DNA of 64,000 nt from Candidatus Gottesmanbacteria bacterium RIFCSPLOWO2_01_FULL_39_12b. GTDB taxonomy: Bacteria; Patescibacteriota; Microgenomatia; 2-02-FULL-39-11. Positions 22,308 through 49,904 of the stretch are shown here, piece by piece (position 1 is the stretch's first letter; each line of letters opens with the position of its first letter). The position numbers and the translations under genes were made by a program. The notes under the pieces were generated by a model. It saw nothing but the letters and a program-made list of their open reading frames with translations, did not search any database and had not been told where the DNA came from. Where the stretch lies: the NCBI GenBank assembly GCA_001780955.1, contig MFJR01000007.1, positions 75,053 to 139,052 on the forward strand, written 5' to 3'.

Positions 22308-22366
22308 TATACTACGAAAATGTCTTAATCCTAGAGAACGAATTAAATCAATTTATTTCAAAATTC

Positions 22367-24765: not shown

Positions 24766-25416
24766 ATGTATAATAAATGGAGATTACTCCGTGAAATGAA
24801 AAGACGCATTGTTAATCAATTTCTTATCCGGAAGACTTCAAAGAAAAAACATTGTTATCTAAAACTCGGCAATAATGTTTATCTTCCCATTTTATCTGAC
24901 ATTAAGACTGCAGTTACTATTGGCAACGGTACCGGTATAAACGGAAAAATCACTATCATGGGAGGATCAAAGGTTTCCATAGGGAAGTACTGTGCTATTG
25001 GATCGGACGTGAAAATAATTTCCTCTAATCATGATGTACGATATGCGAATTTACAATCTAAGTTTCAACTAGAATATTTTGCAATGAGTTTAGATAGTAC
25101 CAAAGGTGAAGTAAAAATTGGAAATAATGTTTGGATAGCAGATTCTGCAATCATTCTATCGGGAGTAACTATTGGGGATGGAGCAGTTGTTGCGGCAGGG
25201 GCAGTTGTGGTAAAGGACATTCCCCCGTTTTGTATAGCTGCAGGAATTCCCGCTGTGATAAAAAGAGAACGATTCTCAAAAAAGATCGTAGATAAGCTTT
25301 TGGCGATTCAATGGTGGGATTGGGATGAAAAGATGATAAAACGAAATAAAGATTTTTTTACGCTAGATCTCACTAAAAATCCCAATTTTTTACTAGAAAA
25401 GATTATTCATAATTAG
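24766..25416 (+). CDS. Left-handed beta-helix (hexapeptide-repeat) sugar O-acetyltransferase (LacA/NodL/WbbJ-like)
   Basis: IGNNVWIADSAIILSGVTIGDGAVVAAGAVVVKDIPPFCIAAGIPA: typical LbH repeats plus the C-terminal cap. Confidence 0.8.
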   Translation: MYNKWRLLREMKRRIVNQFLIRKTSKKKHCYLKLGNNVYLPILSDIKTAVTIGNGTGINGKITIMGGSKVSIGKYCAIGSDVKIISSNHDVRYANLQSKFQLEYFAMSLDSTKGEVKIGNNVWIADSAIILSGVTIGDGAVVAAGAVVVKDIPPFCIAAGIPAVIKRERFSKKIVDKLLAIQWWDWDEKMIKRNKDFFTLDLTKNPNFLLEKIIHN

Positions 25417-27236
25417 GGTCGAGAGAATAGTGTTTTTATTCTTCTTATCTTCTCAGAAGCCTTAAAAAGTTTAGTCGAGGTAATTCTTTCCATATCTTCG
25501 CGTAATCTTATGATTTTGCTACTCAAGTTTCTATTCTTTTCTTCCAACTCTGTTAATTTTTTTGCCGAGAGAGATTTTTCCATAACATCTTCAACGTTAC
25601 AATGTTTCACAAGTTCCAGAAGATTGCTTTGATTTTTTATAGTTTGCTGCAAAAAACCCTGAATGTTTTCAAGTATACGTTTCTTACTATCCTTGGTTAG
25701 AATGTGCTGGTAGGCAGATTCTTCCTCAATAAAATTTTCGATATCGTTCTGCGTACAGACAATTCCTGTCGATTCCCGCAGGAAATCCACAATTGCATTT
25801 TGACAAGGAATACGATCATATATTTTATAAAGGTGGGGTAAGTTCATACTGAAAAGATAGGCGACATTTCTCAGAAAAACAGATAGAAGTGGAATTGGTT
25901 TCCTCTTGATATTCTCTACATCAAAGTAGACGAATTTATTATGTACAAGCGATACATTAGAAAGAGTTGCTTCATAATACCGATGACCTATAAATCCCTT
26001 AGGATCTGTATGGCGTTGCAGGAACTGGTAAAACCTGCTGAAAAGTGCAACCCATTCGCCTTTAAAATTTTCTGAGAGTGCCGCTCGCATGAATGAAAAA
26101 ATATAGGGTTCCGGATAAAGGTCTTGGTAGAGAGCTTTCTTTTTTCCATATAAGTATTTCTTACGCACTTTGAGCTCTTTATCTTTTTCTCCTATCGATA
26201 TTTCACTTTGTCGATTCACGCTACGGCTCAGCTGATAGCGCTTAATAACCCAATCAGCTTTCGGAAGATTTTTCTTTCCCTTGCTTGCAAAAACTAAAAA
26301 GGAGTTAGAGAAACTTTCTAGAAGATCATTCTTGAAAAACTCAGAGAGAAGAAGAAATTCATCTATTATCCGGATCGGTGCTCGATAATAATCTCTGGAG
26401 TATTCCTTAAAGAGGAAATGACTTAAATCTGTTGTGTTTTTCCACTGCAGGGGATGATGAAAAAGAGCAAAGGGTGTTTTATAATCCGGAAAAGGAAAGA
26501 ACCATTCTTGGTAACGTAAATTGTTTTCGTTAAACAAATTTATAAGCTCCTTTCGGCTGAAAGTTTTTGGCCCTTTCTTGTTAGGGAAATTGTGAAGGCT
26601 CTCCAGAAATAGAGATGTATGATCTTCGGTAAGTGGGACAAAATAGCGCAATCCAAGTCTATTTTCGATAGCGAGAATCAATACTCCATCGTCCTTGAGA
26701 AAGGAAGCAGCCGTATGAATAAAAGATGAGGCGGGAGAAGGCGACACAGCAATATTTTTCATAAGGGCTGCATATTCTAATACTCCTACAACGACAACAA
26801 AATCAAACTTTTTGGATGGATATAAATTGAATATATCCTCGGCAATAACTTTCACATTACGAAGTCCTCTGCAGCGTTTTGCACATCCAAGGGCTCTTAT
26901 TAGTGGGGGTTCTACTGCATATACTTCTTTTGCGCATTCGCCAAGTAGCCGTGTTAATCCTCCAAAACCTGCACCAATCTCCAATACACTTTTCTCCGTA
27001 AAAAGTTCTTTAAATGGCAGAAGGAGAGAGTTTCGATATTTGGAAAAATGAGATTCTGTAGACCAATCTACGATTTGGGAGTGTAACTCTTCGCTGAGAG
27101 CGGATACGTCTTTTGCCTTATCGAGAACTTCTAGGATTATTTTTTCTTTTTCAGTTCCCTCATTGTACCAAAAATTGGAAGATTGATTATTTGATGCAGA
27201 AGAGATAACGGATGCTTTATCTATTGGAATACTCAT
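25413..27236 (-). CDS. Multidomain protein: class I SAM methyltransferase domain, a ~300 aa uncharacterised region, and a C-terminal predicted coiled coil. Candidate glycan chain-terminating or chain-modifying enzyme
   Basis: 607 aa. MTase motif I VLEIGAGFGGLTRLL with post-I acidic AVEPP. C-terminal heptad-like KKLTELEEKNRNLSSKIIRLREDMERI. Confidence 0.65.
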   Translation of the reverse strand: MSIPIDKASVISSASNNQSSNFWYNEGTEKEKIILEVLDKAKDVSALSEELHSQIVDWSTESHFSKYRNSLLLPFKELFTEKSVLEIGAGFGGLTRLLGECAKEVYAVEPPLIRALGCAKRCRGLRNVKVIAEDIFNLYPSKKFDFVVVVGVLEYAALMKNIAVSPSPASSFIHTAASFLKDDGVLILAIENRLGLRYFVPLTEDHTSLFLESLHNFPNKKGPKTFSRKELINLFNENNLRYQEWFFPFPDYKTPFALFHHPLQWKNTTDLSHFLFKEYSRDYYRAPIRIIDEFLLLSEFFKNDLLESFSNSFLVFASKGKKNLPKADWVIKRYQLSRSVNRQSEISIGEKDKELKVRKKYLYGKKKALYQDLYPEPYIFSFMRAALSENFKGEWVALFSRFYQFLQRHTDPKGFIGHRYYEATLSNVSLVHNKFVYFDVENIKRKPIPLLSVFLRNVAYLFSMNLPHLYKIYDRIPCQNAIVDFLRESTGIVCTQNDIENFIEEESAYQHILTKDSKKRILENIQGFLQQTIKNQSNLLELVKHCNVEDVMEKSLSAKKLTELEEKNRNLSSKIIRLREDMERITSTKLFKASEKIRRIKTLFSRP

Positions 27237-27245: not shown

Positions 27246-28508
27246 TCAAATTTTCTTCACGATGAATCCTAGGATTACCTTTTTAATATACGTGATATGT
27301 TCGAAGCTTATTCCTGGAAAAACTCCGAGCCAAAAGGCTCCATTGAGAGCCACATCAGAATTTTCTACACTACCTGCTATTCTGTATTTGGTATGTTTAT
27401 ATGCAGGATGCCGAAGTAAATTACCAGAAAAAATTGTCCGAGTCCCAATTTTGTTTTCTTCTAGGTATTGAGTAAATTCATTTCGAGTAAATGGTGCGTT
27501 TTCTTTTACTATTGCCGGGAATCCAAACCAACAGGGATCTTCTTTCTCGGAAAGTTCCGGCAGGATAAAATATTTTTTGTACTGATCAAAAAACGCTCGC
27601 AGCTGAGCGTAATTTTCTTTCCGTTTTTTGATAAATTGGGGAAGTTTTTTTAGCTGTGCGACACCTATTGCGGCTTGAAAGTCGGTTAATTTCAGATTGT
27701 ACCCAATTTGGGTATACGTATACTTGTGATCGTACCCGAATGGGAGATCACCAAATTGCCAGCCGAAACGTTTTCTACATGTATTATCTTTTCCCGTATC
27801 ACACCAGCAATCTCTACCCCAATCTCGAAATTGCCTGATAGATCTATGAATAAGAGGATTATTGGTGATAACGGCTCCTCCTTCTCCCATCGTGATTTGA
27901 TGAGCAGGATAAAAGCTGTATGTTGCAATATCACCATACGTGCCGACAAGTTTTCCATTCCATCGGGAACCAAGAGCATCACAGCAATCCTCGATAACCC
28001 AGAGATTGTATTTCTTCGCAATTCGCGTTATCTGGGTAAGGTTGTACGGAATTCCCAGAGTATGAGCTACCATGATAAGTTTCGTCTTTTTCGTAATTGC
28101 TTTTTCAATTTTTCCAATATCGATATTGAATGTTTTAACATCGATATCAATAAAAACCGGTGTGAGTCCATATTGAATTCCGGGATTAACGGTCGTAGGG
28201 AAAGCAAGAGGTATGGCGATGTATTCATCACCACTTTTGAGGGCTCGATCCTTAAAAACGTTGGAGGTGAGAGAAGCTAGAGCGACAAGGTTGGCAGAAG
28301 AGCCAGAGTTGACTAGAGAAACGTATCTTATTCCCATAAAATTTCTGAAGTCCTTTTCAAACTGTTTCCCGAATTCTCCCTCTGTCCACCAGCCGTCACG
28401 GGCTACTTTTATAGCGTTGTTTATCTCTTCTTTGTCGAAAACTTTACCCGAAACGGGAATGTAGGTTCGACCTGGTATAAACGTTTTCTTCATTATTGAA
28501 ATCCCCAT
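27246..28508 (-). CDS. ddhC: CDP-4-dehydro-6-deoxyglucose 3-dehydrase (E1; RfbH/DdhC/AscC family, PMP- and [2Fe-2S]-dependent)
   Basis: 420 aa with near-collinear similarity to RfbH. SGSSANLVALASLTS, FPTTVNPGIQYGL, SFYPAHQITMGEGG (His replaces the PLP lysine), and cysteine cluster RDWGRDCWCDTGKDNTC (C-x-C-x7-C). Then YDHKYTYTQIGYNLKLTD. Confidence 0.85.
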   Translation of the reverse strand: MGISIMKKTFIPGRTYIPVSGKVFDKEEINNAIKVARDGWWTEGEFGKQFEKDFRNFMGIRYVSLVNSGSSANLVALASLTSNVFKDRALKSGDEYIAIPLAFPTTVNPGIQYGLTPVFIDIDVKTFNIDIGKIEKAITKKTKLIMVAHTLGIPYNLTQITRIAKKYNLWVIEDCCDALGSRWNGKLVGTYGDIATYSFYPAHQITMGEGGAVITNNPLIHRSIRQFRDWGRDCWCDTGKDNTCRKRFGWQFGDLPFGYDHKYTYTQIGYNLKLTDFQAAIGVAQLKKLPQFIKKRKENYAQLRAFFDQYKKYFILPELSEKEDPCWFGFPAIVKENAPFTRNEFTQYLEENKIGTRTIFSGNLLRHPAYKHTKYRIAGSVENSDVALNGAFWLGVFPGISFEHITYIKKVILGFIVKKI

Positions 28509-28575
28509 GTAATGATATTGATTTTTCTATTATATCAGTTACTACAAGTATTTGATAAAATAGATTTGATTTAAT
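28509..28575. promoter_or_regulatory. Divergent promoter region between ddhC and the WbqC-like gene
   Basis: 67 bp AT-rich spacer between divergent starts. TTGATA...TAATAT-like elements are present. Confidence 0.25.
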
Positions 28576-29291: not shown

Positions 29292-30254
29292 ATGTTTAAA
29301 TGGAAAAAATTAGGAAGAGTTTTTAACCCTACGAAATATAAGGATAAAAGTTGGATGCGCGAATTTGCACAAGCACCTTCTGTTCTAATTTTTGATAAAT
29401 TTGTCAGGGTTTTTTTTGCCTGCAGACCTCTACGTGATAAAAACAGACAATACGTCAGCTATACAGGTTTTGTTGACTTAAATAGATACAATTTATTTGA
29501 AATAATTAATATCTCTAAAAGGCCGATTTTACAGTTAGGGGAAAGGGGAACTTTTGATGAATTTGGTACTTATCCTGTGTCAGTAATAAGAAAAGATAAT
29601 GAAATAATAGCCTATTATGGTGGATGGACAAGATGCGAATCAATTCCTTATACCGTATCCATTGGAGTGGCTAAAAGCCATGATAATGGAGTACATTTTA
29701 CTAAATTTGGCAGAGGTCCATTACTATCCTCCAATATTCTTGATCCATATGTCGTAAGTGGTCCAAAAGTCAGAAGGTTTAACGAGCGATGGTACTTGTG
29801 GTATGTGGCTGGAACGAAGTGGTTAGAGACTAATAGTAAACCAGAGGCAGTCTATAAAATCAGAATGGCATATTCAGTTGATGGAATTAATTGGACAAGA
29901 AATGGTAAGAATTTGATTGAGAATAAAATAGAAAAAAATGAGTGTCAGGCAAGTCCGGATGTAATTTATTATAAAGAAAAATATCATATGTTTTTTTGCT
30001 ATAAATATAGTCTGAATTTTAGAAATAACAAGAGAGGTTATAAAATTGGTTATGCATATTCTGATGATCTGACGCATTGGATAAGGGATGATACAAAAGC
30101 AGGTATAGATATATCAAGAAAAGGTTGGGATGGTGAGTCAATCGCTTATCCCCATGTTTTTGAACTCGACAATAATCTTTATATGCTTTATTTAGGAAAT
30201 CAAGTTGGTAGATATGGTTTTGGATTGGCACAACTAGAAGATTATAAACAATAA
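29292..30254 (+). CDS. Beta-propeller glycosidase/phosphorylase-superfamily protein (GH130/GH43-like, DUF377-like), tandem copy 1
   Basis: 320 aa. WKKLGRVFNPTKY...FAQAPSVLIFDKFVRVFFA with recurring W/Y-rich blade-like segments. Paralog of the next ORF. Confidence 0.4.
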   Translation: MFKWKKLGRVFNPTKYKDKSWMREFAQAPSVLIFDKFVRVFFACRPLRDKNRQYVSYTGFVDLNRYNLFEIINISKRPILQLGERGTFDEFGTYPVSVIRKDNEIIAYYGGWTRCESIPYTVSIGVAKSHDNGVHFTKFGRGPLLSSNILDPYVVSGPKVRRFNERWYLWYVAGTKWLETNSKPEAVYKIRMAYSVDGINWTRNGKNLIENKIEKNECQASPDVIYYKEKYHMFFCYKYSLNFRNNKRGYKIGYAYSDDLTHWIRDDTKAGIDISRKGWDGESIAYPHVFELDNNLYMLYLGNQVGRYGFGLAQLEDYKQ

Positions 30255-30258
30255 AAAT

Positions 30259-31259: not shown

Positions 31260-31817
31260 ATGAATATTAAAGGGAAAATAGTAACTTTAAGAGCTATAGA
31301 AGAGACTGATCTCAATCTTCTTCATAAATGGGCAAATGATCCTGAAATACAGGATATTATGGGCGTTATTCACTTCCCAAGTTCCATGGATTTCCATAGA
31401 TTATGGTTTCAAAACCTTAAGAGTGATCTTTTAAATCAACGGTTTGCTATTAATATGTCTGGTATTGGTTTGATTGGAATTTCAAGTCTAATGAGTATTG
31501 ACTGGCGAAATAATCATGCATGGCATGGAATAATGTTAGGAGACGCAAAAATTCGGGGAAAAGGATATGGTGTTGATGCAGTTATGGCTACGATGCGGTA
31601 TGCGTTTGAAGAATTACATTTTGAACGGCTTGATGGTTCAATAATTGAAAATAATAACATATCTTATTCCTTTTATTGTAATAAGTTAGGTTGGAAAGAA
31701 GAGGGTTTGAGAAGAAACTGGTATTTCAGGAGAGGTCGGTATTGGGATCAAATAATTGTAGGTATCACAAAGAAAGACTATGAGCAACTTGTGCAAAAAA
31801 CGAGATATTGGGACTAA
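31260..31817 (+). CDS. GNAT family N-acetyl/acyltransferase (RimJ/RimL-like)
   Basis: 185 aa. KIVTLRAIEETDLNLLHKWANDPEI...LHFERLDGSIIENNNISYSFYCNKLGWKEEGLRRNWYF: GNAT fold motifs. Confidence 0.75.
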   Translation: MNIKGKIVTLRAIEETDLNLLHKWANDPEIQDIMGVIHFPSSMDFHRLWFQNLKSDLLNQRFAINMSGIGLIGISSLMSIDWRNNHAWHGIMLGDAKIRGKGYGVDAVMATMRYAFEELHFERLDGSIIENNNISYSFYCNKLGWKEEGLRRNWYFRRGRYWDQIIVGITKKDYEQLVQKTRYWD

Positions 31818-33115: not shown

Positions 33116-33128
33116 AAAACTTAAACCT

Positions 33129-34361: not shown

Positions 34362-34375
34362 AATCTTTCTTTAAT

Positions 34376-35119: not shown

Positions 35120-35120
35120 T

Positions 35121-36041: not shown

Positions 36042-36043
36042 GT

Positions 36044-39877: not shown

Positions 39878-41713
39878 ATGCAATTTACTATGCAGCAGAA
39901 ACTGTCTGATTTTGTCGTCCAGTTTATTGAAGAATTAGGAGTAAAGCATATTTTCCTTGTATCAGGTGGGGGGAATATTCATCTGATTGATTCAGTTGGA
40001 AAGAGTAAAAAATTTGACTACGTTTGTAATCATCACGAGCAAGCCTCAGCTACCTCAGCTGAAAGCTATGCTAGAGTTACAGGAAATATAGGTGTATGTT
40101 TGACTACAACCGGTCCGGGAGGAACGAATGCCATAACAGGTGTTCTTGGTGCCTGGCAAGACTCAATTCCTATTTTGGTTATTTCCGGTCAAGTAAAAAG
40201 AGAACTTCTTTCCTGGAAAGTTGATAAAAATCTGCGGCAGCTGGGAGACCAGGAAGTGAATATCGTTGAGATGGTGAAATCTATCACAAAATACAGCGTT
40301 ACGGTAATGGAGGCTTCGGATATTCGTTATCATTTGGAAAAAGCGGTTTACTTGGCAAGAAGTGGCAGACCCGGTCCGGTTTGGCTGGATATACCTCTTG
40401 ATATCCAGGGATCATTTATAGACCCAGCGAGTTTGCGAGGATTTGGTCCAAAAGAATTAACTCCTTCTTATCAGACGAACAAACAAAAAATTAAGGAATT
40501 AGTAAAAGTTGTAGTTCAAAGACTAGAAAAAGCAGAAAGACCCGTTCTTTATGCAGGTCATGGTATCCGGTTAAGCGGGGCGGAAAAGGAATTTTTGGAA
40601 TTTGTAAACAAGTTAAAAATTCCGGTGCTTTTAAGCTATGCAGGCTATGATTTACTTCCAAATGAGCATCCGTATTATTTTGGCAGAGCTCATGCTTTTG
40701 GACAACGAGCGGCAAATTTTATTATCCAAAATAGCGATTTATTAATCTCAGTTGGAGCCCGTTTTGATGTTCGAACCATAGGATTTACTTACAAAGCGTT
40801 TGCGAGGGCCGCGTATAAAGTAATGGTGGATATAGATAGGGGAGAACTTGAGAAACCCATTCTATCGCCTGACTTTCCCATTAACTGTGACGCAAAAGAG
40901 TTTATCTTGGAGATGATAAACCAACTTAAACAAAAACCGTTCAAAAAAAATATTTCAGACTGGCTAAATTATGGTAGAAGTTTAAACAAAAAATATCCAG
41001 TTGTTTTACCCCAATATTGGCAGGAAAGGAAGTATGTGAATCCTTACTGTTTCATAGAAACAATAGGCAAATATCTGAAACCGGATGAGATCATTGTATT
41101 ATCGGATGGTGTAGGACCTTTAAATTGTATGTATCAAGCTTTTGTAGTAAAAAAGGGGCAGAGAATAATTTTGAATAACGGGTGTGCTCAGATGGGGTAT
41201 GGTTTACCTGCGGCAGTAGGGGCGGCTTTTGCAGCCGGTAAAAAGAAGCGAATAGTTTGTTTTGAAGGTGATGGGAGTCTGCAGTTAAATATCCACGAAC
41301 TTCAAGTGATGAAACATCATAACCTTTCCATAAAACTTTTCATTTATAGCAATGATGGTTATCTCTCAATCCGCAATACGCAAAATAATCTTTTTGAGAA
41401 GAGACATGTTGCGGTTGATTCACACAGTGGTGTAAGTTCTCCTGATTTTGTGAAAGTAGCCAAAGCTTACGGTTTTCCTGCAGAACGCATATACAATCAT
41501 AAGGATATGGAAGAAAAAATCCAGAAAGTATTAAATTTTCCAGGACCCATAGTTTGTGATATAAATGCAGTGCGTGAGCTTATGCTCAGGCCTAAACTCA
41601 TGGCCAAAAAACTTCCAAACGGACAATTTGTATCGCCTCCTCTTGAAGATATGGGTCCGTTTCTGCCCCGAGACGAATTTAAACAAAATATGCTTATACC
41701 TATATGGGAATAA
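39878..41713 (+). CDS. Thiamine-diphosphate-dependent acetolactate-synthase-like enzyme (YerE-like candidate sugar C-branching enzyme rather than IlvB)
   Basis: 611 aa. N-terminal Pyr domain GGGNIHLIDSVGKS...CLTTTGPGGTNAITGVLGAWQDSIPILVISGQV. C-terminal PP domain GDGSLQLNIHELQ. No small-subunit gene nearby. Embedded in the sugar locus. Confidence 0.75.
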   Translation: MQFTMQQKLSDFVVQFIEELGVKHIFLVSGGGNIHLIDSVGKSKKFDYVCNHHEQASATSAESYARVTGNIGVCLTTTGPGGTNAITGVLGAWQDSIPILVISGQVKRELLSWKVDKNLRQLGDQEVNIVEMVKSITKYSVTVMEASDIRYHLEKAVYLARSGRPGPVWLDIPLDIQGSFIDPASLRGFGPKELTPSYQTNKQKIKELVKVVVQRLEKAERPVLYAGHGIRLSGAEKEFLEFVNKLKIPVLLSYAGYDLLPNEHPYYFGRAHAFGQRAANFIIQNSDLLISVGARFDVRTIGFTYKAFARAAYKVMVDIDRGELEKPILSPDFPINCDAKEFILEMINQLKQKPFKKNISDWLNYGRSLNKKYPVVLPQYWQERKYVNPYCFIETIGKYLKPDEIIVLSDGVGPLNCMYQAFVVKKGQRIILNNGCAQMGYGLPAAVGAAFAAGKKKRIVCFEGDGSLQLNIHELQVMKHHNLSIKLFIYSNDGYLSIRNTQNNLFEKRHVAVDSHSGVSSPDFVKVAKAYGFPAERIYNHKDMEEKIQKVLNFPGPIVCDINAVRELMLRPKLMAKKLPNGQFVSPPLEDMGPFLPRDEFKQNMLIPIWE

Positions 41714-42630
41714 TTAAAAGGAAAAACATTTTTATTACCGGCGGGTCAGGATTTATTGGCAGAAATTTACAGGAATATTTACATTCAAAATACACAATTT
41801 TTGCTCCATCTCATGTTGAACTTGATCTTCTGGATACAAAAAAAGTTGAACGCTTCATCCAGAATAACAATATTCAGATTATCATCCATGGGGCAAATAT
41901 TGGTGGAGGAAGGGATACGATAGATCAAAGAGATGTAGTTCAAACAAATTTGACGATTTTTTTTAATATCGTACGAAATCTTGATAGCCTTGAAAAAGTA
42001 ATTCATCTAGGGTCTGGAGCTGAATACGACAAGAGCAGGCCACTTATAGATGTGAAAGAAGGGGATTTTGATAAACAGATACCTCAGGATGATTATGGAT
42101 TTTATAAATATGTTTGTTCAAAGTATATCGACAAAACGGATAAAATCATATCTCTGAGGTTGTTTGCAGTATACGGTAAATATGAAAATTATCTCTTTAA
42201 GTTCATCTCAAATGCAATTCTCAAGAATTTATTTCACTTACCAATTATTATTAGCCAAAACGTATATTTTGACTATTTGTATATTGAAGATCTTATAAAA
42301 ATTATTGATTATTTCATAAACCATACTGCAAAACATAATGCATATAATATTTCAAGCGGAAAAAGAATTGATCTTCTTACGATTTCAGAAACTATTAATA
42401 ATATAAGCAATTTCAAATCAAAAATTATTCTTCTCAATAAAGGGTTAAATCACGAATATAGTGCAGATAATCATAGATTAACTAAAGAAATAACTGGTTT
42501 AAGTTTTACTTCTATAGAAGAGGGAATTAGAAAACTGTATGATTGGTATAAAAGTAATTTATTCAAAATAAATAGAAATGAAATAAAACAAGATCGTTAT
42601 ATTAAGTATATAAATGTGAAAAGGGATTAA
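41704..42630 (+). CDS. NAD(P)-dependent extended-SDR sugar epimerase/reductase (YerF / RfbJ / RfbS-like candidate)
   Basis: IFITGGSGFIGRNLQEYL glycine-rich N-terminus and a YxxxK region (YKYVCSKY). 308 aa. Overlaps the ThDP enzyme by 10 bp. Confidence 0.65.
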   Translation: MGIIKRKNIFITGGSGFIGRNLQEYLHSKYTIFAPSHVELDLLDTKKVERFIQNNNIQIIIHGANIGGGRDTIDQRDVVQTNLTIFFNIVRNLDSLEKVIHLGSGAEYDKSRPLIDVKEGDFDKQIPQDDYGFYKYVCSKYIDKTDKIISLRLFAVYGKYENYLFKFISNAILKNLFHLPIIISQNVYFDYLYIEDLIKIIDYFINHTAKHNAYNISSGKRIDLLTISETINNISNFKSKIILLNKGLNHEYSADNHRLTKEITGLSFTSIEEGIRKLYDWYKSNLFKINRNEIKQDRYIKYINVKRD

Positions 42631-43664: not shown

Positions 43665-44654
43665 ATGGATAAAAAATTTTGGAAAAAAAGAAATGTTTTT
43701 ATAACTGGAAGCACTGGTTTACTGGGTTTCTGGATAGCAAAATATTTATCGGATTATAAGGCAAACATAATTGCTTTAATTCACAACGATATTCCTCAAC
43801 CATTTATTAAAACCTTTTCTCGCATTACTGTGGTGAAAGGTGAGGTGACAGATTATAAAAAAATTCTTTCTTTACTAAACAAACATAATATAGAAATTGT
43901 TTTTCCGCTTGCAGCACAGACCATTTCTCCAGTTGCTAATACAAATCCAATTCATACTTTTGAAACTAATATAAAAGGAGCATGGATTACTTTAGAAGCT
44001 TGCAGAAACTCAAAGACAGTCAAAAGAATTATTTTTCCTTCAACCGATAAGGTATACGGTGAAGAAGAACGTCTTCCTTATACTGAAAATTCCAGGTTAA
44101 CTGCAAAGAGGCCATATACAGTTTCCAAAAGCTGTGCTGATCTTATAGCACAGGCTTATCATGCAAGTTATAATTTGCCTATTTGCATAACACGGTTTGG
44201 CAATTTTTTTGGAGGAGGAGACTTACGTTTTGACAGGCTTGTTCCATCCGTTATTTATTCAGCATTATATAATAAACCACTTGTCGTACGAAGCGATGGG
44301 AAATATATGAGAGATTTTATATATGTAGAAGATGCAGCAAGAGCTTGTATTGAATTAACAGAAGTAATGGATAGCCTAAAAATCCTTGGAAACGCCTTCA
44401 ATTTTAGTTACGAAAAACCGTTTGAGGTTTTAGAGCTCGTTGAACTGATTCTAAAAAAAATGGAATCTCCTGTTAAACCGAGAGTATTGGGACTTACATT
44501 AAATGAGGTAAGAGATCAATATCTATCTTCCAAAAAATCAAGAACACTGCTTGGCTGGAAACCTTCTTTTACTGTTGAACAAGGAATAGAACGGACAATT
44601 AAATGGTATAGAGATTATTTTAAACATATACGCCAGGATAACGACTCAATATGA
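43665..44654 (+). CDS. CDP-glucose 4,6-dehydratase-like (RfbG/DdhB family) NDP-sugar dehydratase
   Basis: N-terminal FWKKRNVFITGSTGLLGFWIAKYL (RfbG FW.GKRVFVTGHTGFKGSWL), PLAAQTISPVANTNPIHTFETNIKG, STDKVYGE, YTVSKSCADL (RfbG SKGCAEL). Confidence 0.65.
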   Translation: MDKKFWKKRNVFITGSTGLLGFWIAKYLSDYKANIIALIHNDIPQPFIKTFSRITVVKGEVTDYKKILSLLNKHNIEIVFPLAAQTISPVANTNPIHTFETNIKGAWITLEACRNSKTVKRIIFPSTDKVYGEEERLPYTENSRLTAKRPYTVSKSCADLIAQAYHASYNLPICITRFGNFFGGGDLRFDRLVPSVIYSALYNKPLVVRSDGKYMRDFIYVEDAARACIELTEVMDSLKILGNAFNFSYEKPFEVLELVELILKKMESPVKPRVLGLTLNEVRDQYLSSKKSRTLLGWKPSFTVEQGIERTIKWYRDYFKHIRQDNDSI

Positions 44655-46436: not shown

Positions 46437-47231
46437 ATGAACGATTTAGAGAATAAAATGGTTGAATCGTTGATTAACTTAAGAGATAAACATGGGGTAA
46501 TAGAGGTTAAGGCAGAGTTTGAAGCAGAAGCTTCCCGCATGAATGAACTCATGCGGTTAAAAGAGGTAGCGGATAAAGCAGGCTTAGGTTTAGTATTAAA
46601 AGTAGGAGGAGCTGAAGCGATTACCGATATGTTTGAAGCACAGCATATCGGAGTGACGGGACTTATTGCTCCCATGATTGAAAGTGCTTATGCCATGAAA
46701 AAATATCTTGAAGCAATAGGGAAATATTTTCCGCAGGATCTTAGGAAGACTATTCATTTTGGAGTTAATATAGAGACGTATCAGGCGTATAAAAATCTTG
46801 AAGAAATGCTTAATTTGCAAAAGATACACTTTATTGACACAATAACCTTGGGAAGAGTAGACATGTGTGGCTCTCTCAATATCTCAAGAATGGATATTAA
46901 CTGCGACCAAATTTTTGATATTGCTCTTGATATATTTACCAAAGCAAAGAAAAAAGGCATGCGGACAACTATGGGAGGAGGAATAGCCAAAGAAGCAATT
47001 CCGTTTATAAAGAAATTAGCTTCAAAAAAACTTTTGGATAGATACGAAACAAGGAAAATTGTGTTTCCTGTTGCAAAAAGTTTAACAAATATCAAAGAAG
47101 GGATCATTGCCGCAAATTCTTTTGAACTTCTTTGGCTGGAAAATAAAAAAAATTACTATTCCCTTATTTCTACCGAGGATGATTTAAGAATAGTAATGTT
47201 GAATAGCAGAATACCCCAAAAACAGGCATGA
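46437..47231 (+). CDS. HpcH/HpaI-aldolase / CitE-like TIM-barrel protein (tentative)
   Basis: GVTGLIAPMIESAYAMKK and DTITLGRVDMCGSLNI resemble the PMVE...and GxxDL motifs of HpcH/CitE aldolases. Weak. Confidence 0.4.
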   Translation: MNDLENKMVESLINLRDKHGVIEVKAEFEAEASRMNELMRLKEVADKAGLGLVLKVGGAEAITDMFEAQHIGVTGLIAPMIESAYAMKKYLEAIGKYFPQDLRKTIHFGVNIETYQAYKNLEEMLNLQKIHFIDTITLGRVDMCGSLNISRMDINCDQIFDIALDIFTKAKKKGMRTTMGGGIAKEAIPFIKKLASKKLLDRYETRKIVFPVAKSLTNIKEGIIAANSFELLWLENKKNYYSLISTEDDLRIVMLNSRIPQKQA

Positions 47232-48205
47232 AAAAAATAGTTTCAGTTGTTATTCCAACCTATAACGAAGAGGAAAACATAGAATACGCGTATGGTGAAA
47301 TAAAGAAAATATTTCGTTTGTTACCGAAGTATGATTACGAAATTGTCTTTGTAGACAATTATAGTACTGATTATTCAAGAAAGATAATAAAAGAAATAGC
47401 AAAAAAAGACGGTAAAGTAACAGCACTTTTCATGTCAAGAAATTTTACCTCTGAATATTCCTCTCAAGCAGCAATGAAACAGGCAATAGGAGATGCGATA
47501 ACGGTTGTAGACTGTGATTTGCAGGATCCCCCAGAAGTAATCCCGCGGTTCATTGCTGAATGGGAAAAAGGATATCAGGTAATTATAGGAGTAAGAAACA
47601 AAATCAATGATACGTTTTTGATGAGCAAAGTTAGAAGACTATTTTATGTTTTTTTTAAAAAACTAGCCAATATCGATATGCCTCTAAATGCCGGAAGTTT
47701 TTGCCTTTTGGATCGAAAAGTGATGGATGTTATAAATAGTCTTCCAGAGAGAAATCGTTTCTTTCGAGGACTCCGAGCTTGGGTCGGGTTCCGAGTATCC
47801 AAAGTGTATTATGAGAGAAAAGCTCGTCACTTGGGTGAAAGTAAGAATAAATTTTCCGATTACATCAATGATTCAGAGAGAGGGTTGTTGGGATTTTCAT
47901 TTATTCCTTTGGATGTTATGACATCTTTGGGGCTTTTATTAGTATGTGCGTCATTTGTTTTTATAGTAGGATATTTGTTTATGGTCTTTGTCTATGGGAA
48001 TCCAGTAAATGCGTCTATTCCGATTTTAATCGCTATCGTCTTTTTTGGAGGTGTGCAAACGCTTGCTATCAGTATCGTTGGGAAATATATTCAAATTATT
48101 TTTGAAGAAGTGAAAGGGAGACCTACGTATATAATCGATGAGGTTATTAACGATCATCGTCAGAGTTTAACCTATAAGACTCCAAAATTGCTGTACCAAT
48201 CGTAG
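47228..48205 (+). CDS. Polyprenol-phosphate glycosyltransferase, GT2 with C-terminal TM helices (GtrB/ArnC-like), copy 3
   Basis: VSVVIPTYNEEENI...IVFVDNYSTDYS...SRNFTSEYSSQAAM...DCDLQDP and a C-terminal membrane anchor. Confidence 0.8.
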   Translation: MKKIVSVVIPTYNEEENIEYAYGEIKKIFRLLPKYDYEIVFVDNYSTDYSRKIIKEIAKKDGKVTALFMSRNFTSEYSSQAAMKQAIGDAITVVDCDLQDPPEVIPRFIAEWEKGYQVIIGVRNKINDTFLMSKVRRLFYVFFKKLANIDMPLNAGSFCLLDRKVMDVINSLPERNRFFRGLRAWVGFRVSKVYYERKARHLGESKNKFSDYINDSERGLLGFSFIPLDVMTSLGLLLVCASFVFIVGYLFMVFVYGNPVNASIPILIAIVFFGGVQTLAISIVGKYIQIIFEEVKGRPTYIIDEVINDHRQSLTYKTPKLLYQS

Positions 48206-49164
48206 ATCTGTTTTATAATACCGCATAATGTGAATTTCGGCTTCCAACCTAATTTTTTCTCTATCTTTGCATAGTCAAGAGATTGAAAAGGAATTTCATT
48301 CCGAGCAGTATTTAATATCTTATAGTCGATTTTTTTCTGTAGGGTTTTCTCAATAAGTGTTATTAAATTTAGAACCGATAAATTCTCACTTGACCCGAAA
48401 TTGAACGCTTCTCCTTTTACTTTCCCAATATTTTTAGCAAGTAGTAGATAGCCATGTATCACATCTTTTACATAAATATAATCTCGGATATAAGTGCCAT
48501 CACTCCGTATCTTAAGAGATTCTTTGGTTGCAAGAGATTTCATAATGCCCGGAATAACGCGGGAAAAATTCAGATCTCCTTCGCCGTAAACGTTTCCAAA
48601 GCGTGTTACCACAACTGGAAGTCCGTAGGTCTTGAAGTAAGAATAGCTGATAAGGTCAGCAGCAGATTTAGATACTTCGTAAGGGTGATCACCCCGTAGT
48701 GGAGTATCTTCAACATATTTCTTTTCCGTTTTTCCATAAGCTTTATCGGAAGAAGCGACTATAATACCTTTTACCTTTGGAAAAAGGCGAGCACTTTCTA
48801 ATACATTTGTAGTACCGAGAATATTTGTTTCAAGAGTTCTTTTCGGGTTAGCATAGGCTATATCGACAAGCGGTTGGGCAGCAAGATGGAAAATCAGGTC
48901 GATGTCAAACTTAGTTACTAGATCAAACACGCTCTCAAAATTACAGATGTCTATATATACCAACGTCGTTTGTTCATCCAAGTTTCGGGAATAAAAATAA
49001 GAGTGAGGATTTCTAGTCTGATAAGTACTTATTACGTGGGCTTTTTGTCTTATCAATTCCTCAATCAGGTGAGACCCGATAAATCCTGTTCCACCTGTGA
49101 CTAATATGTTTTTGTCGGTAAAGTTTATTTCCATATTTTCCAGGGCGCGTTTCCTTTTTTCCAA
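48172..49164 (-). CDS. RfbG-like NDP-sugar 4,6-dehydratase (extended SDR). Likely the CDP-glucose 4,6-dehydratase partner of the adjacent cytidylyltransferase
   Basis: ILVTGGTGFIGSHL, HLAAQPLVDIAYANPKRTLETNILGT, SSDKAYG, YEVSKSAADL. Directly downstream of ddhA in the same operon. Confidence 0.7.
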   Translation of the reverse strand: MEKRKRALENMEINFTDKNILVTGGTGFIGSHLIEELIRQKAHVISTYQTRNPHSYFYSRNLDEQTTLVYIDICNFESVFDLVTKFDIDLIFHLAAQPLVDIAYANPKRTLETNILGTTNVLESARLFPKVKGIIVASSDKAYGKTEKKYVEDTPLRGDHPYEVSKSAADLISYSYFKTYGLPVVVTRFGNVYGEGDLNFSRVIPGIMKSLATKESLKIRSDGTYIRDYIYVKDVIHGYLLLAKNIGKVKGEAFNFGSSENLSVLNLITLIEKTLQKKIDYKILNTARNEIPFQSLDYAKIEKKLGWKPKFTLCGIIKQIYDWYSNFGVL

Positions 49165-49904
49165 ATATTATTTAATTCTTCATACTCTTTATTAGTATCG
49201 ACTGCAAACCAAAACCCTTCATGTTTATATAGGGATAACTGATTTATGTTCGCTAATCTTTTTAAAGCTGCATGTTCCAACTCTCCTGGTTTCTGATAAT
49301 CGAAATATCTTTTATCAAACATCATAAATCCTCCATTAACCCAGTCTTTAAGAACTGGTTTTTCGGAAAATTGAGTGACAAGATTGTCGTTATTTGTTTT
49401 AACCGCACCGAATTTAAATTTGGGATGAATACCGGTTATGGTTCCAATAGTTTTCTGTTGGTAGTGAAATTTTACTAGCTCTCCTATATTCACATTTGCT
49501 ACTCCATCACCATAGGTAACCATAAACGACTTATCAGTTTCTGGTAGGTATTTTTGGCACCTGAGTATGCGTTCTCCAGGAAGTGTTTCCAATCCCGTGT
49601 CTACAAAAGTTATCTTGAAGTTATCACGTTTTTCAAAATCATTTAAATAATATTTTGCCTTATGATTTATAGTATTGAGGGTGAAATCAGAGGTAAATGC
49701 TTTTTGATTCAGAAAAAAATCCTTAATGTAGTTAGCTTTATATCCCAAGGCTAAGATAAATTCATTATATCCATAACTGGCATATATCTTCATGATATGC
49801 CATACAATCGGTTGATCACCGATATAAACCATCGGTTTAGGTTTGAATTCCGTTTCTTCTTTCAGCCTGGTACCGATGCCCCCGCAAAGAATTATTGTTT
49901 TCAC
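49125..49904 (-). CDS. ddhA: Glucose-1-phosphate cytidylyltransferase (RfbF/DdhA)
   Basis: MKTIILCGGIGTRLKEETEFKPKPMVYIGDQPIVWHIMKIYASYGYNEFILALGYKANYIKDFF is near-collinear with RfbF (MKAVILAGGLGTRLSEET..KPKPMVEIGGKPILWHIMK.Y). Confidence 0.85.
   Translation of the reverse strand: MKTIILCGGIGTRLKEETEFKPKPMVYIGDQPIVWHIMKIYASYGYNEFILALGYKANYIKDFFLNQKAFTSDFTLNTINHKAKYYLNDFEKRDNFKITFVDTGLETLPGERILRCQKYLPETDKSFMVTYGDGVANVNIGELVKFHYQQKTIGTITGIHPKFKFGAVKTNNDNLVTQFSEKPVLKDWVNGGFMMFDKRYFDYQKPGELEHAALKRLANINQLSLYKHEGFWFAVDTNKEYEELNNIWKKGNAPWKIWK

What the first reader, a model, noticed from the sequence alone, without database searches (positions are those of the whole stretch)
27246..28508. E1-type 3-dehydrase (DdhC/RfbH) with intact Fe-S cysteine cluster, but no E3 reductase in the window
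**What the sequence shows**
- The 420 aa ORF is collinear with RfbH/AscC.
- It has His in place of the PLP lysine (SFYPAHQITMGEGG).
- It has the C-x-C-x7-C cluster (DCWCDTGKDNTC).
- Candidate 4,6-dehydratases DdhB are at 43665-44654 and 48172-49164, and DdhA at 49125-49904.

**Established background**
- A His at the lysine position with the Fe-S cluster are the hallmarks of PMP/[2Fe-2S] CDP-6-deoxy-L-threo-D-glycero-4-hexulose-3-dehydrase.
- E1 normally needs the ferredoxin-reductase-like partner E3 (DdhD/AscD).

**Interpretation**
- The locus most likely makes a CDP-3,6-dideoxyhexose-type sugar.
- No E3-like flavodoxin-reductase ORF occurs anywhere in 64 kb.
- E1 sits in a separate, divergently transcribed two-gene operon with the coiled-coil methyltransferase.
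Basis: partly seen in the sequence, partly recalled or inferred. Interest (0 to 1): 0.55.

Follow-up and report, generated by a model that had tools for sequence, protein, structure and literature searches.

The report
E1 sugar 3-dehydrase without linked reductase
This gene is an intact iron-sulfur, vitamin-B6-dependent enzyme that removes the 3-hydroxyl from a CDP-sugar in what is probably a Patescibacteria cell-surface glycan locus; its textbook reductase partner is missing from the window, but it is also missing next to nearly every related gene examined, so the case is ordinary.

Summary
- ORF 27246-28508 (-) encodes a 420-aa RfbH/DdhC/AscC-type E1 dehydrase. It scores 628 bits on NCBIfam NF011936 (cutoff 423).
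- It aligns without gaps to Yersinia E1 (PDB 3BCX, E 1e-150).
- His203 sits at the PLP-lysine position. All four [2Fe-2S] cysteines are present: C176, C234, C236 and C244 (C-X57-C-X-C-X7-C).
- The window holds orthologs of the cytidylyltransferase (49125-49904) and the CDP-glucose 4,6-dehydratase (48172-49164).
- The window is 97.5% coding and contains no E3/FNR-like or ferredoxin-like ORF.

**The missing E3 is not an anomaly.**
- None of 88 non-redundant related E1 loci had an E3-like ORF within the DNA held (up to 10 kb each side). These were 13 Patescibacteria-like loci and 75 from many other phyla.
- Salmonella and Sphingomonas served as positive controls.
- His and the cysteines are essentially invariant in these relatives.
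- SpnQ is a published precedent for an E1-type enzyme that runs on general ferredoxin or flavodoxin reductases.

**Context.**
- A YerE-like ThDP lyase (39878-41713), a YerF-like reductase and an HpcH-type aldolase point to a C4-branched 3,6-dideoxyhexose of the yersiniose/erwiniose class.
- The co-transcribed 607-aa methyltransferase looks like a chain terminator associated with wzm/wzt, not a partner in E1 chemistry.

**Verdict:** a new member of a known kind, of modest interest.

The parts
27246..28508 (-). E1 / RfbH / DdhC-type CDP-6-deoxy-L-threo-D-glycero-4-hexulose 3-dehydrase (420 aa). Catalytic His203; [2Fe-2S] ligands C176, C234, C236 and C244.
   Evidence: NF011936 at 628 bits against cutoff 423. 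Gapless alignment to PDB 3BCX, E 1e-150. Residue mapping. His and the 4 Cys are invariant in 207 homologs, with one C176S exception.
28509..28575 (.). 67-bp divergent intergenic region. It holds the best-scoring sigma-70-like site of the scanned region on the minus strand (28558->28529: TTATCA, 18 nt, TG-TATAAT), just upstream of the E1 start.
   Evidence: This is a consensus match only. Promoter-like sites are not enriched in the region overall (9 found against 16 expected).
25413..27236 (-). 607-aa class I SAM methyltransferase with a long C-terminal extension. It starts 9 nt after the E1 stop, so it is probably co-transcribed, but it is probably functionally separate (a WbdD-like chain-terminating methyltransferase).
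   Evidence: Methyltransf_23 at E 2.7e-12. No PDB relative beyond the generic MT fold. Homologs of 550-700 aa lie just downstream of wzm/wzt(+Wzt_C) (directly after wzt in two, one gene further in the third) in 3 of 3 sampled loci. No homolog in the 87 E1 loci tested.
49125..49904 (-). DdhA/RfbF ortholog (glucose-1-phosphate cytidylyltransferase, 259 aa).
   Evidence: TIGR02623 at 265 bits, full length, just below cutoff 300. 77% identical to the gene in the closest E1 locus L001 and 39% to Salmonella RfbF. Homologs in 66 of 87 E1 loci.
48172..49164 (-). DdhB/RfbG ortholog (CDP-glucose 4,6-dehydratase). The true start is probably ATG 49134, giving 320 aa.
   Evidence: TIGR02622 at 205 bits, below cutoff 278. 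61-65% identical to the dehydratases adjacent to E1 in Patescibacteria loci and 29% to Salmonella RfbG. Homologs in 64 of 87 loci. Start codon.
39878..41713 (+). YerE-like ThDP-dependent lyase (611 aa, canonical GDG motif). It is the predicted consumer of the E1 product, CDP-4-keto-3,6-dideoxy-D-glucose.
   Evidence: The top PDB hit is JanthE 8RPH (YerE-like), full length, 480 bits, against 269 bits for the best acetolactate synthase. JanthE and YerE biology comes from PMC12188165 and PMC12247030. Homologs occur within 10 kb of E1 in 41 of 82 non-redundant loci.
41704..42630 (+). YerF-like NAD(P)H-dependent SDR reductase (308 aa). It overlaps the lyase gene by 10 nt.
   Evidence: Epimerase/SDR family. 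Homologs in 14 E1 loci, 73% identical to L001. In L008 the order is lyase, SDR, E1, contiguous. The role is inferred from the YerE/YerF and ErwE/ErwF schemes (PMC9306805).
46437..47231 (+). HpcH/HpaI-type aldolase (264 aa). It is a candidate supplier of a 4-hydroxy-2-oxo-acid donor for the ThDP lyase.
   Evidence: PF03328 at E 1.4e-6. 67% identical to an ORF beside the ThDP lyase in the Roizmanbacteria locus L011. Aldolase/citrate-lyase genes belong to the erwiniose and caryophyllose schemes (PMC9306805).
42638..43609 (+). GT2 polyprenyl-phosphate glycosyltransferase-like protein (PgfS/ArnC-like, 323 aa). It is a candidate for moving the finished sugar onto a lipid carrier.
   Evidence: NF047588 PgfS at 254 bits and ArnC at 148 bits, both below cutoff. 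Homologs sit directly beside E1 in L001, L004, L010, L011 and L012, and occur in 35 of 87 loci.
47228..48205 (+). Second PgfS/ArnC-like GT2 (325 aa).
   Evidence: 53% identical to the GT2 lying between the ThDP lyase and E1 in L004.
43665..44654 (+). Paralogous NDP-sugar 4,6-dehydratase-like SDR. It is not the DdhB ortholog.
   Evidence: TIGR02622 at 182 bits, below cutoff. Only about 35% identical to the E1-linked dehydratases of relatives.

Best explanation
**What it is.**
- ORF 27246-28508 encodes a functional E1-type (RfbH/DdhC/AscC) 3-dehydrase that depends on PMP and a [2Fe-2S] cluster.
- The source is probably a Patescibacteria genome of Microgenomates type.

**Proposed pathway.**
1. 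DdhA (49125-49904) and DdhB (48172-49164) make CDP-4-keto-6-deoxy-D-glucose.
2. E1 forms the PMP-sugar Schiff base.
3. His203 abstracts the C4' proton and the 3-OH is expelled.
4. The resulting Delta3,4-glucoseen-PMP adduct is reduced by two one-electron steps through the Cys176/234/236/244 cluster, giving CDP-4-keto-3,6-dideoxy-D-glucose.
5. The electrons come from a donor encoded outside this locus. The favoured donor is the cell's general ferredoxin (or flavodoxin) and its reductase, or PFOR, as shown for SpnQ. Less likely is an unlinked E3.
6. The keto-sugar is then most likely branched at C4 by the YerE-like ThDP lyase (39878-41713). The 2-oxo-acid donor is possibly made by the HpcH-type aldolase (46437-47231).
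7. The YerF-like SDR (41704-42630) reduces the branched product.
8. PgfS/ArnC-like GT2 enzymes hand it on for surface glycan assembly.

**Shown here:** family membership, the catalytic His, the four Cys, the presence of DdhA and DdhB orthologs, the absence of E3 in the window and in related loci, and the co-occurrence with YerE-like genes.

**Inferred:** cofactor loading, CDP specificity, the identity of the electron donor, and the branched end product.
For: **E1 identity.**
- NF011936 at 628 bits against cutoff 423.
- Gapless alignment to Yersinia E1 3BCX at E 1e-150. His203 falls on the single position that distinguishes 3BCX from the Lys variant 3BB8.
- The cysteine spacing is C-X57-C-X-C-X7-C.
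- ColD, which has no Fe-S cluster, scores only 204 bits.

**Conservation.** His and the 4 Cys are invariant in 87 locus-encoded and 120 database homologs, with one C176S exception.

**Supply genes.** DdhA and DdhB orthologs are present and co-occur with E1 in 62-70 of 82 loci.

**No E3.**
- In the window.
- In 88 non-redundant E1 loci.
- This includes an otherwise canonical ddhA-ddhB-E1-SDR-epimerase operon in Roizmanbacteria UBA1450.
- Positive controls were Salmonella ddhD and a Sphingomonas plasmid with an E3-like gene 2 kb from rfbH.
- Unbiased clustering of neighbours found no conserved linked redox carrier.

**Precedent and plausibility.**
- SpnQ works with ferredoxin/FNR or flavodoxin/reductase pairs (PMC8987622).
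- A closed Microgenomates genome encodes PFOR, ferredoxin and ferredoxin-NADP+ reductase (PMC7143001).

**Downstream route.**
- The ThDP enzyme matches JanthE best, at 480 bits over its full length.
- YerE-like enzymes take CDP-3,6-dideoxy-4-keto-glucose as acceptor (PMC12247030, PMC9306805).
- The lyase lies within 10 kb of E1 in 41 of 82 loci and in 8 of 13 Patescibacteria-like loci.
Against: - Only 64 kb of the genome is visible, so an unlinked canonical E3 cannot be excluded.
- DdhA and DdhB score below NCBIfam's equivalog cutoffs (265 of 300, 205 of 278), so CDP-glucose specificity is inferred from orthology and synteny, not demonstrated.
- In this window E1 lies 11 kb from the YerE-like gene and 20 kb from ddhA/ddhB, on a different transcription unit, so functional coupling rests on co-occurrence elsewhere.
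- Other consumers of the keto-sugar are possible. These include the DesI-like 4-aminotransferase at 36084-37208, the split transketolase at 55170-56877 and SDR 4-reductases. The closest homolog's locus (L001) has an aminotransferase, a GNAT and transketolases but no YerE-like gene.
- No biochemical data exist for any Patescibacteria E1.
Confidence: 0.72

Rival explanations
1. This is the classical E1/E3 system with the E3 (DdhD/AscD, a Fer2-FNR fusion) simply encoded elsewhere in the genome, outside the 64-kb window.
For: - In the characterised Yersinia and Salmonella systems E1 depends on E3 (PMC8987622).
- Only 64 kb is visible.
- The glycan genes in this window are already spread over several operons (E1 lies 20 kb from ddhA/ddhB), so an unlinked partner is conceivable.
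- E3-like genes exist outside enterics, for example on a Sphingomonas plasmid 2 kb from rfbH.
Against: - None of 88 related loci has E3 within the DNA held, up to 10 kb each side. This includes tight ddhA-ddhB-E1 operons, where ddhD would be expected to travel with them.
- Patescibacteria genomes are about 1 Mb with minimal redox metabolism.
- At most 7 of 28 Streptomyces plasmids carrying rfbH can have an E3-like hit, judging from the organism counts.
Confidence: 0.2
2. The enzyme works in a ColD-like, redox-neutral way. The glucoseen-PMP adduct is hydrolysed to the 3,6-dideoxy-4-keto sugar, ammonia and PLP, and PMP is regenerated from glutamate, so no reductase is needed.
For: - ColD shares the fold and the catalytic His and needs no reductase (PMC8987622).
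- No reductase is linked to E1 here or in relatives.
Against: - The four cluster cysteines, which ColD lacks, are invariant in 207 homologs. That argues for a conserved electron-transfer role.
- The protein is far closer to E1 (505 bits) than to ColD (204 bits).
- E1 was reported not to show the glutamate-dependent transamination seen with SpnQ (PMC8987622).
Confidence: 0.04
3. A flavoprotein encoded in the locus substitutes for E3. The candidates are the amine-oxidase/UGM-like FAD protein (51942-53291) and the YerE-like ThDP enzyme, acting as a pyruvate-driven electron source.
For: - The amine-oxidase-like flavoprotein recurs in Patescibacteria E1 loci L091 and L092.
- The ThDP enzyme family includes pyruvate oxidases (159 bits to POX), and the lyase co-occurs with E1 in half of the loci.
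Against: - Neither has an Fe-S domain.
- The flavoprotein had a homolog in only 1 of the first 87 loci.
- YerE-like genes are absent from many E1 loci, including the canonical operon in L005.
- Co-occurrence of the lyase is fully explained by its known use of the E1 product as substrate (PMC12247030).
Confidence: 0.03
4. The ORF is a sugar aminotransferase of the DegT family, not a dehydrase.
For: It has the DegT_DnrJ_EryC1 fold. SpnQ can transaminate when no reductant is present (PMC8987622).
Against: - The PLP lysine is replaced by His203.
- All aminotransferase equivalogs score far below their cutoffs; the best is PseC at 202 bits against 423.
- A bona fide DesI-like aminotransferase is encoded separately at 36084-37208.
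Confidence: 0.01

Closest known systems
E1 (AscC/DdhC/RfbH) of Yersinia pseudotuberculosis and Salmonella, PDB 3BCX, working with E3 (AscD/DdhD/RfbI)
   Same: - About 52% identity with a gapless alignment over 404 residues.
- Same catalytic His (H220 equals His203).
- Same four [2Fe-2S] cysteines and spacing.
- Same upstream enzymes, a cytidylyltransferase and a CDP-glucose 4,6-dehydratase.
   Different: - No ddhD/E3 gene occurs in the cluster or anywhere in the 64 kb.
- The genes are dispersed rather than arranged as a ddhDABC operon.
- The host is probably a Patescibacteria organism.
- DdhA and DdhB are divergent (39% and 29% to the Salmonella proteins) and score below the equivalog cutoffs.
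SpnQ (TDP-4-keto-2,6-dideoxy-D-glucose 3-dehydrase, Saccharopolyspora spinosa)
   Same: It is an E1-type enzyme with His and a [2Fe-2S] motif. It has no dedicated E3 and is driven by general ferredoxin/FNR or flavodoxin/reductase pairs (PMC8987622). This is the best model for how the window's E1 is reduced.
   Different: SpnQ acts on a dTDP-2,6-dideoxy sugar in a secondary-metabolite pathway. Here the context is a CDP-glucose route for a surface glycan.
ColD (GDP-4-keto-6-deoxy-D-mannose 3-dehydratase, PDB 2GMS/3B8X)
   Same: Same fold, a His in place of the Lys, and no reductase requirement.
   Different: ColD has no Fe-S cysteines, uses a GDP-sugar and regenerates PMP with glutamate. Its similarity is much weaker (204 bits against 505 for E1).
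Yersiniose, erwiniose and caryophyllose pathways (YerE/YerF, ErwE/ErwF/ErwI, MMAR_2331-2332) and JanthE (PDB 8RPH)
   Same: The window has the full gene set of the 'unifying scheme': genes for CDP-4-keto-3,6-dideoxyglucose, a YerE-like ThDP lyase (480 bits to JanthE), an adjacent NAD(P)H reductase and an aldolase (PMC9306805, PMC12247030).
   Different: - The host is probably Patescibacteria, not Proteobacteria or Mycobacteria.
- The donor substrate and the sugar structure are unknown.
- The ThDP motif is GDG, as in typical members, not JanthE's CDG.
- No E3 is present.

Membership tests
E1 / RfbH / DdhC (CDP-6-deoxy-L-threo-D-glycero-4-hexulose 3-dehydrase) | Full-length match to the curated family model above its cutoff | tested here: met
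   NF011936 at 628.3 bits against cutoff 423, covering 26-437 of 440 profile positions.
E1 / RfbH / DdhC (CDP-6-deoxy-L-threo-D-glycero-4-hexulose 3-dehydrase) | His replaces the PLP-binding Lys of the aminotransferase fold (E1 His220) | tested here: met
   His203 aligns without gaps to position 220 of 3BCX. This is the position where the variant 3BB8 carries Lys. His is invariant in 207 homologs.
E1 / RfbH / DdhC (CDP-6-deoxy-L-threo-D-glycero-4-hexulose 3-dehydrase) | Four-cysteine [2Fe-2S] motif C-X57-C-X1-C-X7-C (E1 C193, C251, C253, C261; residue numbers from my memory of Agnihotri et al. 2004, and the presence of a four-Cys motif from PMC8987622) | tested here: met
   C176, C234, C236 and C244 have exactly this spacing and map to 193, 251, 253 and 261 by the +17 offset.
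E1 / RfbH / DdhC (CDP-6-deoxy-L-threo-D-glycero-4-hexulose 3-dehydrase) | Actually binds PMP and a [2Fe-2S] cluster and dehydrates CDP-4-keto-6-deoxy-D-glucose | not testable with these tools
   This needs purified protein, UV-vis/EPR and an activity assay.
E1 / RfbH / DdhC (CDP-6-deoxy-L-threo-D-glycero-4-hexulose 3-dehydrase) | Substrate supplied by a glucose-1-P cytidylyltransferase and a CDP-glucose 4,6-dehydratase in the same genome | tested here: met
   49125-49904 and 48172-49164 have these as their best families, although both fall below the equivalog cutoffs. They are orthologous (61-77% identity) to the genes adjacent to E1 in Patescibacteria loci.
Classical E1/E3 two-component system (ddhDABC / ascABCD type cluster) | A dedicated Fer2-FNR reductase (E3, DdhD/AscD/RfbI) encoded with E1 | tested here: not met
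   The window has no E3-like sequence: tblastn best E 0.13, phmmer best E 1.1, and no Fer2, FAD_binding_6 or NAD_binding_1 domains. The rest of the genome could not be searched.
SpnQ-type E1 homologs (Fe-S 3-dehydrases without a dedicated reductase) | His and Fe-S motif present, no cluster-encoded reductase, reduction by general Fd/FNR or Fld/FldR | tested here: inconclusive
   The motif and the lack of a linked reductase are met. Use of general reductases cannot be tested here. The nucleotide context differs (CDP, not dTDP).
ColD-type 3-dehydratase | His present but no Fe-S cysteines; GDP-mannose pathway context | tested here: not met
   All four cysteines are present. ColD scores 204 bits against 505 for E1. 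No GDP-mannose 4,6-dehydratase equivalog was found.
DegT/DnrJ/EryC1 sugar aminotransferases | Conserved PLP-binding lysine | tested here: not met
   His is at that position. All aminotransferase equivalogs score far below their cutoffs.
YerE-like ThDP lyases (for ORF 39878-41713) | Closer to characterised YerE-like enzymes than to AHAS, glyoxylate carboligase or pyruvate oxidase; three ThDP domains; located in a deoxy-keto-sugar cluster | tested here: met
   JanthE 8RPH at 480 bits over the full length, against 269 for AHAS, 175 for glyoxylate carboligase and 159 for pyruvate oxidase. TPP_enzyme_N, M and C domains are present. It falls below all AHAS equivalog cutoffs. It co-occurs with E1 in 41 of 82 loci. 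Ketone acceptance itself is not testable here.

The most novel reading that the evidence does not exclude
E1-type dehydrases outside the enterobacteria, and especially in the redox-poor Patescibacteria, may depend on a dedicated but unrecognised electron-donating partner, or on an unusual electron source such as pyruvate oxidation by PFOR or a ThDP flavoenzyme, rather than on E3 or a generic ferredoxin. On that reading the textbook E1/E3 pair would be a lineage-specific exception, and a new reductase class for C-3 deoxygenation would remain to be found.
Probability: 0.1. Interest if true: 0.6.

Novelty: new member of a known kind. Interest (0 to 1): 0.3.

Why it matters
- 3,6-Dideoxyhexoses and their C4-branched derivatives are strongly antigenic surface sugars.
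- Finding the full E1 plus YerE-like toolkit in what is probably a Patescibacteria genome of about 1 Mb shows how much coding capacity these episymbionts spend on exotic surface glycans. This 64-kb window is essentially all glycan genes.
- The survey also makes a general point. E3, the textbook partner, is unlinked or absent next to nearly all sampled E1 genes, although the Fe-S ligands are strictly conserved.
- The physiological reductant of most E1 enzymes is therefore unknown. SpnQ-style reliance on housekeeping ferredoxin or flavodoxin is the likeliest answer.
- This is useful to annotators, who should not require ddhD when calling the pathway. It is also useful to enzymologists who want YerE-like biocatalysts with their native substrate supply.
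- It is not a new mechanism.

Tried and rejected
1. **Hidden or degraded E3 in the window.** I ran tblastn and phmmer --max with Salmonella RfbI/DdhD against all six frames and found nothing. Regex searches for ferredoxin, rubredoxin and 2Fe-2S motifs also found nothing real. There is no non-coding space for one.
2. **A conserved alternative redox partner near E1.** All-vs-all clustering of ORFs from 82 loci yielded only sugar-pathway genes: dehydratase, cytidylyltransferase, ThDP lyase, GT2, NeuB-like, SDRs and methyltransferases. It also yielded antisense artefacts from high-GC genomes.
3. **The methyltransferase as a partner in E1 chemistry.** Rejected. It has no homolog in the 87 E1 loci tested, whereas its homologs follow wzm/wzt. 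A direct sequence link to WbdD structures was not found, so the terminator role is an analogy only.
4. **Primary papers.** I tried to read the E1 and SpnQ papers (PMC2515268, PMC2782820, PMC2197195). They are not held. The residue numbers for the E1 cysteines therefore rest on my memory plus the alignment. The supplement of PMC9306805 is not held either.
5. **Literature search for ddhD/ascD absence.** It returned only unrelated DDHD-lipase papers.
6. **Genome-level search for E3 in the source organism or in closed Patescibacteria genomes.** This was not possible.
Full report
**1. Observation**

ORF 27246-28508 on the minus strand starts with ATG and encodes 420 aa.
- It matches NCBIfam equivalog NF011936 (lipopolysaccharide biosynthesis protein RfbH) at 628.3 bits against a curated cutoff of 423, over essentially the whole profile. 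Every sugar-aminotransferase equivalog falls far below its cutoff.
- Pfam gives DegT_DnrJ_EryC1 at E 3.5e-95.
- Among solved structures the best hits are Yersinia pseudotuberculosis E1, 3BCX (E 1.3e-150, 505 bits), and its variant 3BB8. ColD scores 204 bits and aminotransferases score 163 bits or less.

The alignment to E1 is gapless: query 6-409 equals chain 23-426.
- His203 in FYPAHQITMGEGG falls on residue 220. This is the single aligned position where 3BCX has His and 3BB8 has Lys, matching the H220K variant described in PMC8987622.
- The cysteines at 176, 234, 236 and 244 have the spacing C-X57-C-X-C-X7-C. They map to E1 193, 251, 253 and 261. The residue numbers of the Yersinia ligands come from my memory of Agnihotri et al. 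2004. The existence of a four-Cys motif in E1 and SpnQ but not ColD comes from PMC8987622.

**2. The rest of the pathway in the window**

- ORF 49125-49904 has glucose-1-phosphate cytidylyltransferase as its best family (265 bits, full length, cutoff 300).
- ORFs 48172-49164 and 43665-44654 both have CDP-glucose 4,6-dehydratase as best family (205 and 182 bits, cutoff 278).
- BLAST against E1 neighbourhoods from elsewhere resolves the ambiguity.
  - The cytidylyltransferase is 77% identical to the one in the locus of the closest E1 homolog and 39% to Salmonella RfbF.
  - 48172-49164 is 61-65% identical to the dehydratases directly upstream of E1 in Patescibacteria loci.
  - 43665-44654 is only about 35% identical, so it is a paralog.
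- The true DdhB start is probably ATG 49134, giving 320 aa as in the homologs.

**3. E3 is absent from the window**

- All 54 ORFs of 130 aa or more (outside the E1 gene's own frames) were scanned against Pfam and/or NCBIfam. None has a Fer2, FAD_binding_6 or NAD_binding_1 domain.
- I recovered a real E3 (Salmonella RfbI/DdhD, 324 aa) from an unannotated gap between rfbC and rfbF on a Salmonella replicon.
- Searching the window with it in all six frames gave tblastn best E 0.13 and phmmer --max best E 1.1.
- No ferredoxin, rubredoxin or plant-type 2Fe-2S cysteine pattern occurs in any six-frame segment of 40 aa or more.
- The window is 97.5% coding and its largest internal gap is 140 bp.

**4. 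Origin**

- The best database homologs of E1 (70-80% identity) are metagenomic. Where named, they come from Patescibacteria: Roizmanbacteria, Gottesmanbacteria, Woesebacteria, Shapirobacteria and 'Patescibacteria group'.
- The cytidylyltransferase, the dehydratase, the YerF-like SDR and the large membrane proteins also find their best matches on those contigs.
- GC content is about 33%.
- The window is most likely from a Microgenomates-type Patescibacteria genome. This is an inference, because no marker gene lies in the window.

**5. Is the missing E3 unusual? No.**

- I collected E1 neighbourhoods holding up to 10 kb either side (less where the contig ends).
  - Source 1: the contigs of five close homologs.
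  - Source 2: 80 loci from one-genome-per-species contigs. These span Patescibacteria, Acidobacteriota, Chloroflexota, Planctomycetota, Omnitrophota, Deinococcota, Bacteroidota, Paenibacillus, alpha-proteobacteria and Methanoregula.
- After removing duplicates this is 88 loci, 13 of them Patescibacteria-like.
- With Salmonella E3 as query, phmmer --max at E <= 1 finds an E3-like ORF in none of them.
- The Pfam labels of the called genes likewise show no Fer2 or FNR domains.
- The method finds the Salmonella control at E 3e-227. A Sphingomonas plasmid shows what a non-enteric linked E3 looks like: 37% identity, tblastn E 3e-58, 2 kb from rfbH.
- Roizmanbacteria UBA1450 has an otherwise canonical operon with no ddhD: cytidylyltransferase, dehydratase, E1, a 309-aa SDR and a 150-aa sugar epimerase.
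- The catalytic His and the four cysteines are invariant in all 87 locus-encoded and 120 database homologs, apart from one C176S. These enzymes have therefore kept the electron-accepting cluster.
- Unbiased clustering of all neighbouring ORFs found no conserved linked redox carrier of any other kind.

**6. How E1 most likely gets its electrons**

- The published precedent is SpnQ. It is an E1-type enzyme with the His and the Fe-S motif, it lacks a dedicated E3, and it works with ferredoxin/ferredoxin reductase or flavodoxin/flavodoxin reductase (PMC8987622).
- A closed Microgenomates genome is reported to encode pyruvate:ferredoxin oxidoreductase, ferredoxin and ferredoxin-NADP+ reductase (PMC7143001). 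Such donors are therefore plausible in this lineage.
- I favour this explanation.
- An unlinked canonical E3 remains possible, at about 0.2, because the rest of the genome is not visible.
- A ColD-like, glutamate-driven, redox-neutral mode is unlikely given the strict conservation of the cysteines.

**7. What the product is used for**

- ORF 39878-41713 (611 aa) has the three ThDP-enzyme domains. It falls below every acetolactate-synthase equivalog cutoff.
- Its best structural relative by far is JanthE (8RPH), at 480 bits over the full length. The best acetolactate synthase scores 269 bits.
- JanthE is a characterised YerE-like lyase (PMC12188165).
- YerE-like enzymes add an acyl branch from a 2-oxo acid to CDP-3,6-dideoxy-4-keto-D-glucose, which is exactly the E1 product. 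This gives yersiniose, erwiniose, caryophyllose and relatives, followed by an NAD(P)H reductase (YerF/ErwF). An aldolase often makes the longer donor (PMC12247030, PMC9306805).
- The window has all of these.
  - The lyase gene overlaps by 10 nt a 308-aa SDR (41704-42630).
  - An HpcH/HpaI-type aldolase lies at 46437-47231.
- Homologs of the lyase lie within 10 kb of E1 in 41 of 82 non-redundant loci and in 8 of 13 Patescibacteria-like loci. They are often contiguous with E1, for example lyase-SDR-E1 in L008 and lyase-GT2-E1 in L004.
- PgfS/ArnC-like GT2 genes (42638-43609, 47228-48205) are also typical E1 neighbours, present in 35 of 87 loci. By analogy with ArnC/ArnT-type systems, the sugar may be passed to a polyprenyl phosphate and then used by the seven large membrane proteins at 9699-24625. 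This last step is inference only.
- Alternative consumers exist. These are the DesI-like 4-aminotransferase at 36084-37208 and the split transketolase at 55170-56877. The locus of the closest E1 homolog (L001) has transketolases, an aminotransferase and a GNAT but no YerE-like gene.

**8. The methyltransferase**

- E1's stop lies 9 nt before the ATG of a 607-aa class I SAM methyltransferase, so a two-gene transcript is likely.
- A good extended -10 promoter-like site sits in the 67-bp divergent gap. This is weak evidence.
- The pairing is not conserved. No homolog occurs in the 87 E1 loci tested.
- Its homologs (27-43% identity, mostly 540-700 aa, many phyla) lie just downstream of wzm and a Wzt with a Wzt_C domain in all three loci sampled: directly after wzt in two and one gene further in the third. 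This is the arrangement of chain-terminating modification enzymes in ABC-transporter-dependent O-antigen pathways, for which WbdD is the paradigm (from my own knowledge).
- The window has wzm/wzt at 5679-7215.
- No sequence link to WbdD structures was found. This is a 'works like' suggestion, not membership.

**9. Verdict**

- The protein passes every testable defining feature of the E1/RfbH family.
- It fails only the feature 'dedicated E3 in the cluster', and most sampled relatives fail that too.
- It is a new member of a known kind. It has a known precedent for reductase-independence from E3 (SpnQ) and sits in a known type of pathway (YerE-like branched 3,6-dideoxyhexoses), here in what is probably a Patescibacteria host.
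- The residual open question is which protein reduces E1 where E3 is absent. It is real but not specific to this window. I rate interest at 0.3.

Noticed in passing
window 9699-24625 (-): Seven tandem paralogous polytopic membrane proteins of 603-752 aa. Only 20448-22307 has a weak YfhO hit. Homologs occur in Patescibacteria E1 loci, where one is labelled DUF6311. This looks like an array of GT-C-type extracytoplasmic glycosyltransferases.
   Followed up: partly
window 25413-27236 (-); loci L088, L089, L090: Homologs of the 607-aa methyltransferase lie just downstream of wzm and wzt(+Wzt_C) in 3 of 3 sampled loci (directly after wzt in two, one gene further in the third). This suggests a WbdD-like chain-terminating methyltransferase family of about 600 aa that is widespread across phyla and has no solved structure.
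   Followed up: partly
window 31260-37208 (+): The stretch contains a GNAT, a 3-hydroxyacyl-CoA dehydrogenase, a 186-aa unknown protein, an acetyl-CoA acetyltransferase (NF004936, 569 bits, above cutoff), a methyltransferase, a GT2 and a DesI-like 4-aminotransferase. Together these look like a module for an N-(3-hydroxybutyryl)amino sugar.
   Followed up: no
window 43665-46419 (+): A CDP-glucose-dehydratase paralog, a FabG-like SDR and an AroB-related sugar-phosphate cyclase (TIGR04425, 377 bits, cutoff 400) lie together. This may be a carbocyclic or cyclitol branch inside a glycan locus.
   Followed up: no
window 51942-57843; loci L091/L092: An amine-oxidase/UGM-like flavoprotein, an epimerase, a 296-aa methyltransferase and a split transketolase (N and C halves as separate genes). 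A similar set of genes (by domain family and size) lies beside E1 in Patescibacteria loci L091 and L092. L001 has two split transketolases flanking E1. Transketolases have been proposed to branch keto-sugars (PMC12247030).
   Followed up: partly
window 29292-31221 (+): Two tandem 320-aa paralogs show weak GH130/GH32 beta-propeller similarity. They follow a WbqC-family protein, directly across the divergent promoter region from E1.
   Followed up: no
whole window: GC skew is positive in 25 of 32 two-kb bins and only weakly negative in the rest, so the cumulative skew rises from start to end, and bins covering minus-strand genes are among the positive ones. A strong strand-composition disparity has been described for a Microgenomates genome (PMC7143001).
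   Followed up: no
L006 4067-5041 (Salmonella plasmid record NZ_CP022016.1): The ddhD/rfbI gene is intact (324 aa) but missing from the PLSDB gene table. Apparent absence of E3 in that collection's annotation is therefore unreliable, and the sequence had to be checked directly.
   Followed up: yes
L090 155-3323 and 13681-15498: A metagenomic locus combines ddhA, ddhB, an E1-like protein (437 aa), wzm/wzt, a homolog of the 600-aa methyltransferase, a YerE-like ThDP enzyme and NeuB, again with no E3. NeuB-like genes occur in 19 of 82 E1 loci.
   Followed up: partly
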